Shown: positions 11,897-31,612, counted from the stretch's first letter. The stretch: 32,000 bases of DNA from Candidatus Saccharimonadota bacterium (GCA_039920285.1 JBDSDX010000001.1:660001-692000); one strand, 5' to 3'. Translations and numbers: made by a program. Notes: a model not told the origin generated them from the sequence alone.

Positions 11897-13393
11897 TTAA
11901 TCTAAGATCATTTTGACACGCTGGAGCTGATAGGTCGCTCCAGACTTTGTAATACTATAGAGATAGCGTCCGTTCTGGCTCAGCGTGGCATCGAAGCCAG
12001 GTTCTGCCGCACCAATGACGTGCACATTTGTACCGTCAAACTCTCGTATCGAAAGGTGACCATCGTAGACAGACCACACATAGGCACCGTCAAGCCAGTT
12101 CAGGGTATAGGCTTTTGATTCACTGGTTTCGACAGTCGCATTGGTTTGTCGTTGGTATTCAATTTCATAACTAATAAAACCAAGTCCTGAACGAATAATA
12201 AGATAATCGCCATCGAGGCTAAAGCTCAATTGGTCAACCGCTGCTGGTGCAGTAAACGTCGCATAAGTTTGGAGGCTGGTTGATTCATCAGCACTCGAAC
12301 TTGGGTAGCGACCCTTTAATACGGTCACTGTCAGTCCTTCAACTATGGCCACGTAATCATCACTAAAGTAACGCGTCGCGTCGATCAGAAGAGGAGTATC
12401 GAAGCTTGTACGGCGCAAAATGTGTGACGATTCATCACCTTCACGGTAGATACCCGCAACTTGTTTCGTTGAATCAGCAGGATCAATACCTATATACGTG
12501 ATAATGTTCGTTTCAAATAAATCAAAGTTTTTGACGTTTGTGACAAGACCGCGAGAAATGGTTGCTGCCCCAAGATCGAGTTTACGAATCACGCCGTCGT
12601 TCGTCAGACCATACAGAATATTTCCACTCGTACCCGAGAACTTTAGGTCACTCAAGCCAATACTGAGTAAGCGAGTAATATTGACACTTGTGCCGACATC
12701 TTGTGTATCGACGACAATCCATTCAGTTTTCTCGTTATAGACATGTTTTACTAAGACAAAGCGACCGCCTTCATCCCATTGATTTAGAGTAAATGTGTGT
12801 GTCACACCGACAGTAGTGGCATCACTGTAAGTACCGACAGGTAAAGTAATCGTTGATGTTTGCGGATTCTGTGAACGAAGATCAACGAGCTGAAAACTAG
12901 GTATCTCAGCTTTTTGCTGAAGTATGAGCCATTTATAATCTGGTGATGCTTTTTCTCCGACAAGTGAAGGGTAGGTTGAGATTTTGTCCGTCTGGAGGTT
13001 TTTTGGGACCAACCGAATATAGTCGAGCCACGTTAATGTTCCCGCTTTAACCGTCAATGATTTTGCCCATTGTTCATAACCATCGCGCGACACAATAAAG
13101 GTATGGCTCCCGGCAATAACAGTTTGCTTGGTTGCCGTTCGTGAGCCGATAGTTTTGCCGTCAATCGTGACATAGGCGCCACTCGGTGTTGAATCAAATT
13201 GGAGGAGTGCACCCTGTTCAAGGCGACCTTTTTGACTATCAAGTCGATATCCTAAAATAAACAGCACGGCACCAGTCATGATAGTTAAAATAGCCACAAT
13301 CATAACGATTGATACGATGGTGCGCCGGATGAGTAGCTGCTTTTTTGAGGGTCGTCGAAACATTATTACGCTTATTATAGCAATCTTGTACAC
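11897..13393 (-). CDS. PEGA-domain membrane-anchored protein with beta-rich C-terminal region
   Basis: N-terminal TM helix. PEGA motif region TPSGAYVTIDGKTIG ... VSRDGYEQW. The long beta-strand-rich remainder may be propeller-like. The track start is GTG; the alternative ATG at 13363 lies 10 nt after a TGCTATAAT box. Confidence 0.75.
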   Translation of the reverse strand: MYKIAIISVIMFRRPSKKQLLIRRTIVSIVMIVAILTIMTGAVLFILGYRLDSQKGRLEQGALLQFDSTPSGAYVTIDGKTIGSRTATKQTVIAGSHTFIVSRDGYEQWAKSLTVKAGTLTWLDYIRLVPKNLQTDKISTYPSLVGEKASPDYKWLILQQKAEIPSFQLVDLRSQNPQTSTITLPVGTYSDATTVGVTHTFTLNQWDEGGRFVLVKHVYNEKTEWIVVDTQDVGTSVNITRLLSIGLSDLKFSGTSGNILYGLTNDGVIRKLDLGAATISRGLVTNVKNFDLFETNIITYIGIDPADSTKQVAGIYREGDESSHILRRTSFDTPLLIDATRYFSDDYVAIVEGLTVTVLKGRYPSSSADESTSLQTYATFTAPAAVDQLSFSLDGDYLIIRSGLGFISYEIEYQRQTNATVETSESKAYTLNWLDGAYVWSVYDGHLSIREFDGTNVHVIGAAEPGFDATLSQNGRYLYSITKSGATYQLQRVKMILD

Positions 13394-30545: not shown

Positions 30546-30612
30546 GGTCCATTGACTTTTCATCTGTTGAAGATGATAATACGCCACAGATTCCGTTGAG
30601 AAAGCCGCCAAA

Positions 30613-30640
30613 AAACAGCCATTCTCCGGAATGGCTGTTT
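30613..30640 (+). terminator. pth terminator hairpin
   Basis: AAACAGCCATTC-tccg-GAATGGCTGTTT, a perfect stem with flanking A and T runs. Confidence 0.65.
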
Positions 30641-30658
30641 GAGAAATTAAGGAAAAAC

Positions 30659-31090
30659 ATGACTCGCATCACCGCGCGTCACGTGCGCGAAACACTGCTT
30701 GGCCCGTACTACCGTCTGCGTGCGTCGATTAATGAACGACGCGAGCACAACAATGCCATGCGCGAACTCAAAGATGATGAGCGTATGCAAGCAAGCGAGA
30801 AGAAGATTGCGGAAACAGAGAGACTCCGCAGGCTTGTTGATACGACCATTCCCGGTCTTATCGGGCAGTGTTCCGGTGTTCTCGAAGCCGCGAATTACGG
30901 TGGTAAACACTGGCATCTCGGCCACGTCTATGACATCGGGTTCGTGTATCTGATCCAAGACGGCACGATCGCGACAGAAATCACGTCGACGAAGGCGACA
31001 GTCCCTCTCGGCGCGCTCAACTACCGTCAAGCAAGCGACTTGCATACACACCTAACTGCGATGCTCACGAGCGCACGCAGCAGGGTATAA
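30659..31090 (+). CDS. Hypothetical protein, elevated-GC gene
   Basis: Track ORF trimmed to ATG 30659 (AAGGA lies 8 nt upstream). The track start at 30596 runs through the pth terminator. Sampled lines have 52-65% GC. Confidence 0.55.
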   Translation: MTRITARHVRETLLGPYYRLRASINERREHNNAMRELKDDERMQASEKKIAETERLRRLVDTTIPGLIGQCSGVLEAANYGGKHWHLGHVYDIGFVYLIQDGTIATEITSTKATVPLGALNYRQASDLHTHLTAMLTSARSRV

Positions 31091-31118
31091 GCCTCTCGCC
31101 GAGTACTCCTCTCAAACA

Positions 31119-31147
31119 GTAGCCCCCGTCATTACGACGGGGGCTAC
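31119..31147 (+). terminator. Rho-independent terminator
   Basis: GTAGCCCCCGTC-attac-GACGGGGGCTAC, a perfect 12-bp stem, followed by TTCAATTTT. Confidence 0.75.
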
Positions 31148-31181
31148 TTCAATTTTGACAGATTATTTTTCCAACTAAAAA

Positions 31182-31452
31182 GGCACCAGGTAAGGGTGGG
31201 CATCACCTGGTGCCATTTTACCCTTTAACCCACCCGAGTTTTATCAGCGAAGCGTACGCGATCGATAGAAATGTATGATGCGCGCCTGACTCACCGAAGT
31301 GGGTCACTACTGTATAGTCGCTAATCGATAAAACCTGTAGGGTCCAACCCCGAAGGGAAGGTGTTAAAGGGATTAGTATTCATACAAAGCTGGTCTCTCG
31401 AGAGAGAGCCCATAAAGTGGAGGGTAGTTACTATACAGGCACCTTGTATGAA
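31182..31452 (+). ncRNA. Candidate structured RNA of unknown class (strand uncertain)
   Basis: Nested helices found by eye. Hairpin 31182-31214 has a 10-bp perfect stem. A long-range helix pairs 31221-31234 with 31360-31371. ATCGATAG (31261-31268) pairs with CTAATCGAT (31321-31329). Hairpin 31287-31306 is fully paired on the plus strand only via one G-U. TTCATACAA (31379-31387) pairs with TTGTATGAA (31444-31452) and encloses hairpin 31392-31410. No ORF on either strand. Confidence 0.35.
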
Positions 31453-31612
31453 ACCTAACATAGAGTGATACCCCAATAAAAAATTAAGATATCACAGTTA
31501 GAATAGGGGGTATAAGGTGCTTGGTCATCCTCGCAGGAACGACCAATCATCATGCATTCTAGCACTTGTTTGACTAAATGTCAATACTTATCTCAGGGTG
31601 AACATAAAGTAG

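What the first reader, a model, noticed from the sequence alone, without database searches (positions are those of the whole stretch)
31155..31550. About 400 nt of ORF-free, heavily base-paired sequence upstream of dprA: candidate novel structured RNA
There are no credible ORFs on either strand, but nested complementarity is dense. A 10-bp perfect hairpin lies at 31182-31214, and its loop AAGGGTGGG can pair with ACCCTT/CCCACCC just downstream, giving pseudoknot potential. A 13-bp long-range helix pairs 31221-31234 with 31360-31371. Inside it are ATCGATAG/CTAATCGAT and the hairpin 31287-31306. A second domain is closed by TTCATACAA/TTGTATGAA (31379-31387 with 31444-31452). Further hairpins lie at 31465-31495 and 31521-31546. 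A TTGACA box at 31155-31160 could start a plus-strand RNA at the first hairpin. The G-U pair in 31287-31306 favours the plus strand. However, on the minus strand the first hairpin is followed by TTTTT like a terminator, and 31295-31298 becomes a C(UUCG)G loop. Strand is therefore unresolved. I looked for RNase P (GGAAAGUCC, ACAGAA..CGGCUUA), tmRNA (tRNA-like ends, tag ORF) and SRP (GGAA/AGCA domain IV) signatures and did not find them.
Basis: seen in the sequence. Interest (0 to 1): 0.6.

Follow-up and report, generated by a model that had tools for sequence, protein, structure and literature searches.

The report
Conserved orphan RNA gene beside dprA
The gap upstream of dprA holds a real, separately transcribed, intricately folded RNA gene of about 370 bases on the minus strand. 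It is kept across a whole order of the tiny epibiotic Saccharibacteria and matches no described RNA family. Its last hairpin is copied by many of their phages and is complementary to the start site of one conserved host gene.

Summary
Window 31177-31550 is ORF-free and folds far better than shuffles. It is a stand-alone non-coding RNA gene on the MINUS strand. Its promoter is TTGACA-17-TGcTAGAAT (31584-31556), and a 3' hairpin (31182-31214) plus a U-run closes it.

- **Structure:** in 28 species of the genus, 94% of 100 modelled pairs hold and 46 pairs show compensatory changes. G.U pairs outnumber A.C 319 to 51, which settles the strand.
- **Distribution:** homologues of 253-480 nt lie between pth and dprA throughout this Saccharibacteria order, one per genome. 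None was found in other orders of the class.
- **Identity:** no Rfam family matches. RNase P RNA and tmRNA are elsewhere in the genome, and SRP is absent, which is a known CPR trait.

This scan has already met the same family at least ten times in other Saccharibacteria genomes. It called the family new and of unknown function each time.

New here:
- The 3' hairpin, with invariant loop core UGCCCACCC, occurs alone in about 100 distinct phage contexts. Both host lineage variants of the loop are found in phage contigs.
- The loop's longest complement in the whole genome (12 nt) overlaps the start codon of a conserved 160-aa Saccharibacteria-only gene. That GGUGGG box is kept across the order.

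My best guess, at modest confidence, is a trans-acting RNA whose 3' loop masks that start site. Function remains untested.

The parts
31556..31584 (-). Sigma-70-type promoter of the RNA gene: TTGACA (31584-31579), 17-nt spacer, TG-extended TAGAAT (31561-31556). The -35 box is half of the palindrome TTGACTAAATGTCAA (31570-31584), which faces dprA.
   Evidence: 11 of 12 matches, TG present. The same TTGACA-N17-TGcTAnAAT is present upstream of all 61 unique homologues.
31177..31550 (-). Inferred transcript of the structured non-coding RNA, about 370 nt. The 5' end is inferred from the -10 box and the 3' end from the U-run. Neither end is mapped experimentally.
   Evidence: Conserved in 36 of 36 genomes of the genus at 66-92% identity (the tally includes the unpublished genome G030).
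31521..31546 (-). P1, the 5' hairpin. It is capped by a GNRA tetraloop (GCGA here; GAAA, GCAA, GUAA or GAGA in other lineages).
   Evidence: Helix 1 (6 of 10 pairs with double changes). Loops read.
31497..31520 (-). J1/2, a 24-nt segment (GCACCUUAUACCCCCUAUUCUAAC) invariant in the genus and in the forms recovered by the pattern search, and predicted single-stranded. It is diverged in some genera of the same family.
   Evidence: Invariant columns. A covariance model built on P1 plus this segment finds one copy per genome in 48 of 151 genomes of the order.
31455..31496 (-). Variable hairpin closed by CUAAC/GUUAG. The long 31465-31495 stem is specific to this species and its nearest relative. GUUAG can alternatively pair with CUAAU at 31372-31376.
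   Evidence: Insert lengths of 0-45 nt at this point. Both pairings involve invariant bases, so neither is proven.
31379..31452 (-). P3 domain: the long helix 31441-31452 with 31379-31390. It encloses the L3 hairpin and a UCGA-capped hairpin.
   Evidence: Helix 2 (9 of 16 pairs with double changes, 99.6% paired).
31417..31427 (-). L3 loop CUACCCUCCAC, a C-rich loop resembling the 3' tail of 16S rRNA (GGAUUACCUCCUUU in a genus member). Diverged genera keep a CCUCC-like core.
   Evidence: The 16S tail was read.
31363..31371 (-). P4 5' strand, CCCUUUAAC.
   Evidence: pairs 9/9 with the 3' strand in 111 of 114 homologues. Variant pairs include CCCUUUGUC/GACGAAGGG, GCCUUUAAC/GUUGAAGGC and CUCUUCAAC/GUUGAAGAG.
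31236..31362 (-). Variable middle domain. It includes the UUCG-capped hairpin at 31287-31306 and is replaced by one short hairpin in the 253-292-nt forms of other lineages.
   Evidence: Helices 7-12.
31221..31235 (-). G-rich strand GGGUGGGUUAAAGGG. GUUAAAGGG (31221-31229) is the P4 3' strand. GGGUGGG (31229-31235) is complementary to the loop of the last hairpin and is a candidate pseudoknot.
   Evidence: The pseudoknot is invariant and therefore untested (helix 13).
31182..31214 (-). L6, the last hairpin. It has a covarying stem and an invariant 17-nt top, GUGAUGCCCACCCUUAC (31190-31206), with 9-nt core UGCCCACCC (31194-31202). The same hairpin occurs alone in phage contigs. Its loop is complementary to the start region of the gene at G000:C1:101279.
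   Evidence: Helix 14. Phage copies. Complementarity.
31177..31181 (-). U-run after the last hairpin. It pairs with the A-run upstream of the stem. In some lineages it is replaced by an extended stem and a separate terminator follows.

Best explanation
**What it is (about 95% sure).** This is a stand-alone gene for a compactly folded non-coding RNA of about 370 nt. It is transcribed on the minus strand from its own near-consensus promoter and ends at a long 3' hairpin. It belongs to an undescribed RNA family found once per genome between pth and dprA across one Saccharibacteria order.

**How it most likely works (about 35-40%, inferred, not shown).** It acts in trans by base pairing. The invariant loop of the 3' hairpin (UGCCCACCC) serves as a seed that pairs with the GGUGGG(C)(A) box lying over the ribosome-binding site and AUG of a conserved 160-aa Saccharibacteria-specific gene. 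A few other genes may carry the same box. Pairing would block or tune their translation.

The RNA's own GGGUGGG tract, next to helix P4, can hold the same loop in a pseudoknot. The fold could therefore gate the seed. The second C-rich loop (CCUCC, like the 16S tail) may contact Shine-Dalgarno sequences in the same way.

Phages of these bacteria carry solitary copies of the 3' hairpin. Some copies have their own promoter and terminator. They would then mimic the seed, or compete for whatever binds it.
For: **Gene and strand**
- Promoter.
- G.U 319 against A.C 51 cells.
- Minus-strand fold z = -6.4.

**Structure**
- 94.2% of 2800 cells are paired and 46 of 100 pairs show double changes.
- 0 of 500 shuffles reach this. 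Slid controls give 35-50% paired.
- P4 covaries across 114 homologues.

**Family**
- 36 of 36 genomes of the genus carry it.
- More than 115 species representatives match a motif.
- 48 of 151 genomes of the order match the 5' model, one hit each.
- Genera that miss the model still carry a diverged copy.
- Synteny with dprA holds in 124 of 142 loci.
- 16 and 17 species share identical 255-nt and 284-nt sequences.
- No known family matches.

**Seed model**
- The 12-nt complement AAGGGUGGGCAU is the longest anywhere in the 795-kb genome outside the gene itself, and it overlaps the AUG of the 160-aa ORF.
- Orthologues occur in 56 of 61 relatives.
- The box sits at the same place in all 29 genus members (counting one with GGUGGA) and in 12 other families.
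- The longest Watson-Crick match is 5-12 nt in 34 genomes. It beats composition-preserving loop shuffles at p<=0.05 in 25 of 34.
- The central U of GGUGG fits the A of CCACC but mismatches the anti-Shine-Dalgarno CCUCC (direct reading).

**Phage copies**
- 59 and 53 contigs carry the two lineage variants, in 46 and 50 distinct contexts.
- Stems covary and there is no GGGUGGG within 400 nt.
- About a quarter lie right after a -10 box.
- These are genuine phage modules.
Against: - No expression, end-mapping or binding data exist. The target link is purely computational.
- The target link was found post hoc, from one best hit.
- Start regions are G-rich anyway. Shuffling a C-run loop therefore overstates significance, and related genomes are not independent.
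- Matching of loop variant to box variant across lineages is weak. A loop on A box averages 8.2 against 6.7 on B box. B on B averages 7.9 against 7.6 on A. One genome (G055) has only 5 nt.
- The loop and its partners never vary, so neither the pseudoknot nor the trans pairing is supported by true covariation.
- A 250-480-nt RNA with GNRA-capped helices, long invariant joining regions and species-identical sequence is far more constrained than known base-pairing sRNAs. That points to a protein or ribonucleoprotein role.
- In the cis pseudoknot the seed would be occupied.
Confidence: 0.4

Rival explanations
1. Ribonucleoprotein scaffold or protein sponge. The RNA's conserved C-rich single strands and the 3' hairpin loop are binding sites for one or more host proteins, for example KH-domain KhpA-type proteins. 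The RNA stores, delivers or titrates them. Phage hairpins would be decoys or hijackers of that protein.
For: - Sequence is extremely constrained outside helices, and whole-RNA sequence is identical across 16-17 species.
- GNRA and UUCG caps and a multi-domain fold are typical of RNP RNAs.
- Phage copies present the loop without any nearby complementary strand. This resembles solitary-repeat decoys.
- The genome encodes two ORFs with a KhpA/B-type KH domain. KhpA/KhpB bind the orphan raiA/ModT RNA in Clostridia (PMC12968392).
Against: - No protein partner is identified.
- No gene co-occurs specifically with the RNA apart from pth and dprA, which have no known RNA partner.
- There is no Jag_N (KhpB N-terminal) domain and no Rho.
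- This reading does not by itself explain the conserved complementarity to the start site of the 160-aa gene.
Confidence: 0.3
2. A catalytic or structural housekeeping RNA: a ribozyme or machine component that replaces a function lost in these reduced genomes.
For: - Size, pseudoknot potential, tetraloops and invariant joining regions resemble RNase P RNA or large ribozymes.
- There is one copy per genome at a fixed core locus.
- It has a very strong promoter.
Against: - The 5' invariant segment and the middle domain are lost or replaced in some genera of the same family. That is unusual for an active site.
- Nothing was found in other orders of the class.
- No candidate reaction or substrate emerges.
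- Complementarity to rRNA is no better than for shuffles.
Confidence: 0.1
3. A highly diverged member of a known RNA class: 6S RNA, SRP RNA or the raiA/ModT motif.
For: 6S and SRP RNA models find nothing anywhere in this genome, so those slots look empty. raiA is likewise an abundant orphan RNA of about 200-250 nt with pseudoknots.
Against: - No Rfam model scores above noise on the long or the minimal form.
- The 5' and 3' ends do not pair, unlike 6S and raiA P1.
- There is no GGAA/AGCA domain IV, and there is no Ffh or FtsY for an SRP RNA to bind. This is a loss already reported for CPR bacteria (PMC4508563, PMC8080830).
Confidence: 0.04
4. A cis-acting leader or riboswitch of a neighbouring gene (dprA or pth), or a plus-strand RNA starting at the 31155 TTGACA.
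For: Fixed synteny with dprA, and a shared palindromic promoter region.
Against: - The RNA is divergent from dprA and convergent with pth, so it precedes no gene.
- It ends in a hairpin plus U-run.
- The plus-strand promoter is not conserved.
- The G.U/A.C ratio rejects the plus strand.
Confidence: 0.02

Closest known systems
C-rich-loop trans-acting sRNAs: RsaE/RoxS (Bacillota), 6C RNA (Actinomycetota), RNAIII hairpins
   Same: They display conserved C-rich motifs in hairpin loops that can pair with G-rich ribosome-binding regions. They are stand-alone genes with their own promoter and terminator. The best complement of one loop lies on a start codon.
   Different: - This RNA is three to five times larger and has a multi-domain, covarying fold.
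- It has long invariant joining regions, GNRA caps and a candidate internal pseudoknot.
- There is no sequence or covariance-model similarity.
- Its 3' hairpin also exists as a solitary module in phages.
Orphan large structured bacterial RNAs: raiA motif/ModT, OLE, ROOL, GOLLD
   Same: It is a lineage-wide, highly conserved, complex fold with pseudoknots. It is probably abundant, and its function is unknown.
   Different: - There is no homology to any of them.
- It has no closing helix of 5' and 3' ends as in raiA.
- It is restricted to one Saccharibacteria order.
- Unlike ROOL and GOLLD, it is a fixed chromosomal core gene and only one hairpin of it is phage-borne.
Phage-borne mimics of host RNA modules, for example solitary CRISPR-repeat RNA anti-CRISPRs (from my own knowledge, not checked in the library)
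   Same: Phages carry a single hairpin identical in its recognition part to a module of a host RNA. The copy sometimes has its own promoter and terminator.
   Different: The host RNA here is not a CRISPR RNA. No defence role is shown. Whether the phage copies are decoys, seed mimics or stability elements is unknown.

Membership tests
Any Rfam 15 family | Covariance-model score at or near the family's gathering threshold | tested here: not met
   The whole window at gathering threshold gives only two tRNAs. At E<=10 the region, and the minimal 255-nt homologue, give only noise of 14-19 bits.
Bacterial RNase P RNA / tmRNA | Being the genome's copy of that RNA | tested here: not met
   RNase P RNA lies at G000:C1:15613-15948 (258.7 bits). 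tmRNA lies at 12380-12783 (75.4 bits). ARAGORN finds no tmRNA in the window.
SRP RNA (4.5S or large) | Domain IV motif scored by RF00169/RF01854, and presence of its protein partner Ffh | tested here: not met
   - No SRP RNA hit in the genome.
- No SRP_SPB or SRP54 GTPase domain.
- No GKTT...DTAGR...TKxD ORF.
- 0 of 121 genomes in the phylum sample.
- The loss is reported for CPR (PMC4508563, PMC8080830).
6S RNA | Rod-like fold with 5' and 3' ends paired around a central bubble; RF00013 score | tested here: not met
   No RF00013 hit. The consensus fold is multi-branched with separate 5' and 3' hairpins. Binding to RNA polymerase is not testable here.
raiA motif / ModT RNA | Closing P1 of the two ends, PK1/PK2 core, conserved UUAGACGUAA linker, RF03072 score | tested here: not met
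   There is no model hit on long or short forms. The ends do not pair. Only a loose UUAGAC-like string occurs in some short forms. Features taken from PMC12968392.
Base-pairing sRNA with C-rich seed (RsaE/RoxS-like, by function not homology) | Exposed conserved C-rich loop with conserved complementarity to translation start regions of target mRNAs | tested here: inconclusive
   The loop UGCCCACCC is complementary (5-12 nt) to the start region of one conserved gene in 34 genomes, and 25 of 34 beat loop shuffles. It is the longest complement in the genome. However, the test is post hoc, start regions are G-rich, lineage covariation is weak, and there is no experimental pairing.
Cis-regulatory leader / riboswitch | Lies upstream of, and on the same strand as, the regulated gene | tested here: not met
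   It is divergent from dprA and convergent with pth or the inserted ORF.

The most novel reading that the evidence does not exclude
The RNA and the phage-borne copies of its 3' hairpin form a host-phage RNA mimicry system. A core, order-wide structured RNA controls a small regulon through one invariant loop, starting with a Saccharibacteria-only 160-aa protein encoded next to groESL. Phages express the same hairpin as a solitary RNA, either to take over that control or to disarm the RNA's partner. This would be a new kind of regulatory RNA and the first functional RNA-level host-phage interaction described in the Candidate Phyla Radiation.
Probability: 0.2. Interest if true: 0.85.

Novelty: new variant of a known kind. 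Interest (0 to 1): 0.72.

Why it matters
Saccharibacteria have genomes under 1 Mb with almost no spare DNA. Even so, they keep a 250-480-nt non-coding gene whose conserved segments stay identical where the flanking DprA protein is only 41-50% identical, and which is identical across many species in the short forms. No RNA beyond the universal set has been described for this lineage in the literature I could search.

A new, strongly constrained RNA with a testable target and phage-borne mimics offers a concrete way into gene regulation and phage-host conflict in bacteria that are hard to grow and largely uncharacterised. Genetic tools based on natural transformation now exist for some Saccharibacteria (from my own knowledge), so the predictions can be tested.

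Tried and rejected
- **Known RNAs.** Rfam was run at gathering and permissive thresholds on the window, the region, eight homologous loci and the minimal form. It found nothing.
- **SRP RNA.** I suspected this because no SRP RNA is found. I rejected it because Ffh and FtsY are absent too, which is a known CPR trait.
- **Small ORF.** A 13-codon ORF runs through the 3' hairpin, preceded by AAAGGG. I rejected it because stem changes keep pairing rather than amino acids, and the AUG is not conserved.
- **boxA-like reading of CCCUUUAAC.** Rejected. The string is the 5' strand of a covarying helix and changes in short forms.
- **Pairing with rRNA.** Duplex energies of six conserved segments against 16S, 23S and 5S of a genus member are no better than for shuffled segments. 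The best, z = -2.5, is 1 of 18 tests.
- **Rho decoy (C-rich loops).** There is no Rho RNA-binding domain in the genome.
- **Phage attachment site in the 3' hairpin.** Most phage copies have their own different stems. They lie in RecT/exonuclease or portal/protease modules or between tRNAs, not next to integrases. One contig end (L166) matches a host-type hairpin and remains compatible with this idea.
- **A second genomic copy.** There is none. A 14 of 17 look-alike at G000:C1:258477 lies inside a membrane-protein ORF.
- **RNAalifold's pairing of the 5' invariant segment with the G-rich strand.** Rejected in favour of P4, which covaries.
- **Literature.** Searches for a description of this RNA in Saccharibacteria or Patescibacteria found nothing.

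Full report
**1. Context**

The window is G000:C1:660001-692000 of a 795,370-bp single-contig genome rated 99.9% complete. Motif searches in public genomes return almost only Candidatus Saccharibacteria, Saccharimonas and Microsaccharimonas records. The organism is therefore a member of the Saccharibacteria (TM7, Candidate Phyla Radiation).

The flagged gap lies between a 164-aa ORF (30596-31090, plus strand; its own terminator is at 31118-31148) and dprA (start 31613, plus strand).

**2. The observation**

No ORF above 51 aa lies in 31155-31550. Both strands fold well below dinucleotide shuffles, and the minus strand folds better: -141.8 kcal/mol at z = -6.43, against z = -4.15 for the plus strand.

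One pairing, ATCGATAG/CTAATCGAT, is not conserved.

**3. Strand and transcription unit**

On the minus strand there is a TTGACA-17-TAGAAT promoter with an upstream TG, matching 11 of 12 positions (31584-31556). The same TTGACA-N17-TGcTAnAAT lies upstream of all 61 unique homologues I collected.

The plus-strand TTGACA at 31155 lies in sequence that is not conserved even within the genus.

The RNA ends in the 31182-31214 hairpin followed by UUUUU. In some lineages the U-run is replaced by an extended stem and a separate terminator follows. The hairpin is therefore part of the functional RNA and not merely a terminator.

In my consensus structure, 319 cells are G.U and only 51 are A.C. On the plus strand these numbers would swap. 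The gene is on the minus strand, running from about 31550 to 31177. Both ends are inferred, not mapped.

**4. Structure**

I aligned 28 species of the genus (A1; the unpublished genome G030 was left out). The consensus model has 100 pairs in 14 helices.

- 94.2% of 2800 cells are paired.
- 46 pairs show changes on both sides.
- All five measures exceed all 500 column shuffles.
- Slid controls give 35-50% pairing.

The long-range helix P4 (31363-31371 with 31221-29) is invariant within the genus but covaries across the family. In 114 homologues it is 9/9 paired in 111. The pair types are:

- CCCUUUAAC/GUUAAAGGG
- CCCUUUAAC/GUUGAAGGG
- CCCUUUGUC/GACGAAGGG
- CCCUUUGUC/GAUGAAGGG
- CCCUUUAUC/GAUGAAGGG
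- GCCUUUAAC/GUUGAAGGC
- CUCUUCAAC/GUUGAAGAG

More types appear in diverged genera: CCUCUUUGAC/GUCGAAGAG and CCCUCUAAC/GUUAGAGGG.

P1 is capped by GNRA tetraloops in most lineages, and other hairpins carry UUCG. Four C-rich elements and one G-rich strand are essentially invariant:

- J1/2: GCACCUUAUACCCCCUAUUCUAAC
- The L3 loop: CUACCCUCCAC
- The P4 5' strand
- The loop of the last hairpin
- The G-rich strand: GGGUGGGUUAAAGGG

GGGUGGG is perfectly complementary to CCCACCC in the last loop, which makes a candidate pseudoknot. Because neither side varies, this is unproven (helix 13).

**5. Distribution**

- **Genus.** BLAST finds the region in 36 of 36 genomes at 66-92% identity, once per genome. 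This tally includes the unpublished G030.
- **Motif search.** An 18-nt motif hits more than 115 species-representative genomes, nearly all labelled Saccharibacteria.
- **Full-length homologues.** Profile searches recover forms of 253-411 nt. The short forms lack the middle domain. 16 species share one identical 255-nt sequence and 17 share one identical 284-nt sequence.
- **Order.** A covariance model of the 5' domain (R1) finds exactly one hit in 48 of 151 genomes sampled evenly across the order. This includes the unpublished G188.
- **Class.** The same model finds no hit in families of other orders in a class-wide sample of 151 genomes. I write 'not found in those searched'.
- **Genera missed by the model.** Genera of the same family that gave no R1 hit still carry a diverged copy upstream of dprA. 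These copies keep the same promoter, P4 and last hairpin.
- **Synteny.** dprA flanks the RNA in 124 of 142 loci and pth in 72. The ancestral order is pth, then the RNA on the opposite strand, then dprA. In this window an extra ORF has been inserted between pth and the RNA.
- **Relative conservation.** DprA is only about 41-50% identical across the families, whereas the RNA's conserved segments are identical.

**6. What it is not**

- No Rfam family matches.
- RNase P RNA and tmRNA are elsewhere in the genome.
- 6S and SRP models find nothing in the genome.
- The SRP proteins are absent as well. They are also absent in 31 relatives and 121 genomes of the phylum. This matches published reports for CPR bacteria (PMC4508563, PMC8080830).
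- The raiA/ModT RNA shares only general character (PMC12968392).
- I found no paper describing this RNA.

**7. Earlier notes of this scan**

The same family was found at least ten times in other Saccharibacteria genomes. Each time it was judged a new structured RNA of unknown function. I reach the same identification independently.

One note said the last hairpin's loop also occurs in phage-like contigs. I followed that lead.

**8. The last hairpin is an autonomous module in phages**

The exact 17-mer GUGAUGCCCACCCUUAC occurs in 59 IMG/VR contigs. The variant used by most other families of the order, GCGGUGCCCACCCCCUC, occurs in 53. Profile searches on the first set show that only the hairpin is present, not the rest of the RNA. 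In the second set, one contig (L296) also carries the 3' end of a host RNA gene.

- In 46 and 50 distinct contexts the stems differ but stay complementary.
- The two variants share the 9-nt loop UGCCCACCC. They differ by a compensatory change in the inner stem (A-U to G-C).
- The contigs are genuine phages. One family carries the hairpin about 250 nt upstream of a RecT-like gene and a nuclease-FtsK fusion. Another carries it between the portal and head-protease genes. Others carry it between phage tRNA genes.
- About a quarter of copies lie just after a -10 box. About a sixth are followed by a U-run, so some are probably tiny independent RNAs.
- No GGGUGGG lies within 400 nt of any of the 96 copies. 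In phage RNA the loop therefore has no local partner.
- In the host genome the hairpin is unique.

**9. A candidate target**

Scanning the whole genome for complements of the loop, the longest match outside the gene itself is the 12-mer AAGGGUGGGCAU at G000:C1:101269. It overlaps the AUG of a 160-aa ORF (101279-101761), which is divergent from groES/groEL.

The next best matches are three 10-mers, none at a credible start. Three of the 9-mers lie within 15 nt of credible starts.

The protein has no Pfam or NCBIfam family. It clusters only with Saccharimonadota hypothetical proteins. Orthologues occur in 56 of 61 relatives across 22 of 25 genera.

All 29 genus members carry (A/G)(A/G)GGUGGG(C)(A) (GGUGGA in one) immediately before the AUG (this includes the unpublished G030). 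Twelve genomes of other families carry similar boxes at the same place, for example AGGGGGUGGGUAC-AUG, GGGGGUGGAA-AUG and AAGGGUGGGC-AUG.

Pairing each genome's own loop with its own start region gives 5-12 contiguous Watson-Crick pairs in 34 genomes. The median p is 0.007 against composition-preserving loop shuffles, and 25 of 34 reach p<=0.05.

Caveats:

- The hit was found post hoc.
- Start regions are G-rich.
- Shuffling destroys C-runs.
- Relatives are not independent.
- Lineage matching of loop and box variants is weak (8.2 against 6.7, and 7.9 against 7.6).

A point in favour: GGUGG has a central U that fits the loop's A but mismatches the anti-Shine-Dalgarno CCUCC. The 16S tail read in a genus member is GGAUUACCUCCUUU.

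**10. Mechanism**

Shown:

- A conserved, independently promoted, structured minus-strand RNA gene.
- A covarying fold.
- An autonomous 3' hairpin shared with phages.
- A conserved complementary box on one gene's start site.

Inferred:

- The loop pairs with that box in trans and affects translation.
- The internal GGGUGGG competes in cis.
- The phage hairpins mimic the seed or compete for its partner.

I rate the base-pairing model at about 35-40%. A protein-centred ribonucleoprotein or sponge role is about 30%. A catalytic or structural housekeeping role is about 10%. Anything else is small.

Supporting checks: there is no Rho and no Jag_N domain, but two KhpA-type KH ORFs are present. There is no meaningful complementarity to rRNA.

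**11. Verdict**

This is a real and interesting feature. It is a member of an undescribed, order-wide RNA family that this scan has met repeatedly. Two concrete, testable leads are added here. Function remains unproven.

Noticed in passing
window 31570-31584 (and the same place in homologous loci L040-L154): The RNA's -35 box is one half of a palindrome, TTGACA-N3-4-TGTCAA, lying 25-30 nt from the dprA start codon. The two divergent genes share this element. It could hold two face-to-face -35 boxes or act as an operator. No good -10 for dprA is visible in this window.
   Followed up: partly
window 30596-31148: A 164-aa ORF of unknown family, with its own strong terminator (31118-31148), sits between pth and the RNA. 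Many other loci have pth within a few kb of the RNA and I detected no homologue of this ORF in any of them, so it looks like an insertion.
   Followed up: no
whole genome G000: No Ffh, FtsY or SRP RNA was found: no SRP54 GTPase domain, no M domain and no motif-bearing ORF. The same holds for 31 relatives and 121 genomes of the phylum sample. This agrees with published reports that CPR bacteria lack SRP.
   Followed up: yes
whole genome G000: The assembly contains no 16S or 23S rRNA gene: no Rfam SSU hit, no universal primer sites and no N runs. A 5S-like string lies near the contig end at about 794756. The rRNA operon is probably missing at the contig break, although the genome is rated 99.9% complete.
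   Followed up: partly
G000:C1:101279-101761 (outside the window): A conserved 160-aa Saccharimonadota-only protein with an acidic N-terminus, a Pro/Ala-rich linker and a helical C-terminal domain. It is divergent from groES/groEL and has an unusual GGGUGGG box instead of a canonical Shine-Dalgarno sequence.
   Followed up: partly
G000:C1:718849, 455795, 276159, 792133 (outside the window): A few other genes carry GGGUGGG-type boxes, or 9-nt complements of the hairpin loop, within 15 nt of plausible start codons. They may form a small regulon.
   Followed up: no
loci L159-L217 (IMG/VR contigs of about 35 kb): One phage family encodes a RecT-like annealing protein followed by a fusion of a PD-(D/E)XK nuclease with an FtsK/SpoIIIE translocase domain. 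The solitary hairpin lies about 250 nt upstream of recT.
   Followed up: partly
locus L296 (IMGVR_UViG_3300049064_000004): One 'viral' contig carries both the 3' end of a host-type RNA gene and, 1.4 kb away on the other strand, a phage-type solitary hairpin. It may be a provirus sitting next to the RNA gene.
   Followed up: no
G000:C1:440359-440577 and 145883-146101: Two ORFs carry a KhpA/B-type KH domain. No Jag_N domain and no Rho RNA-binding domain were found in the genome.
   Followed up: no
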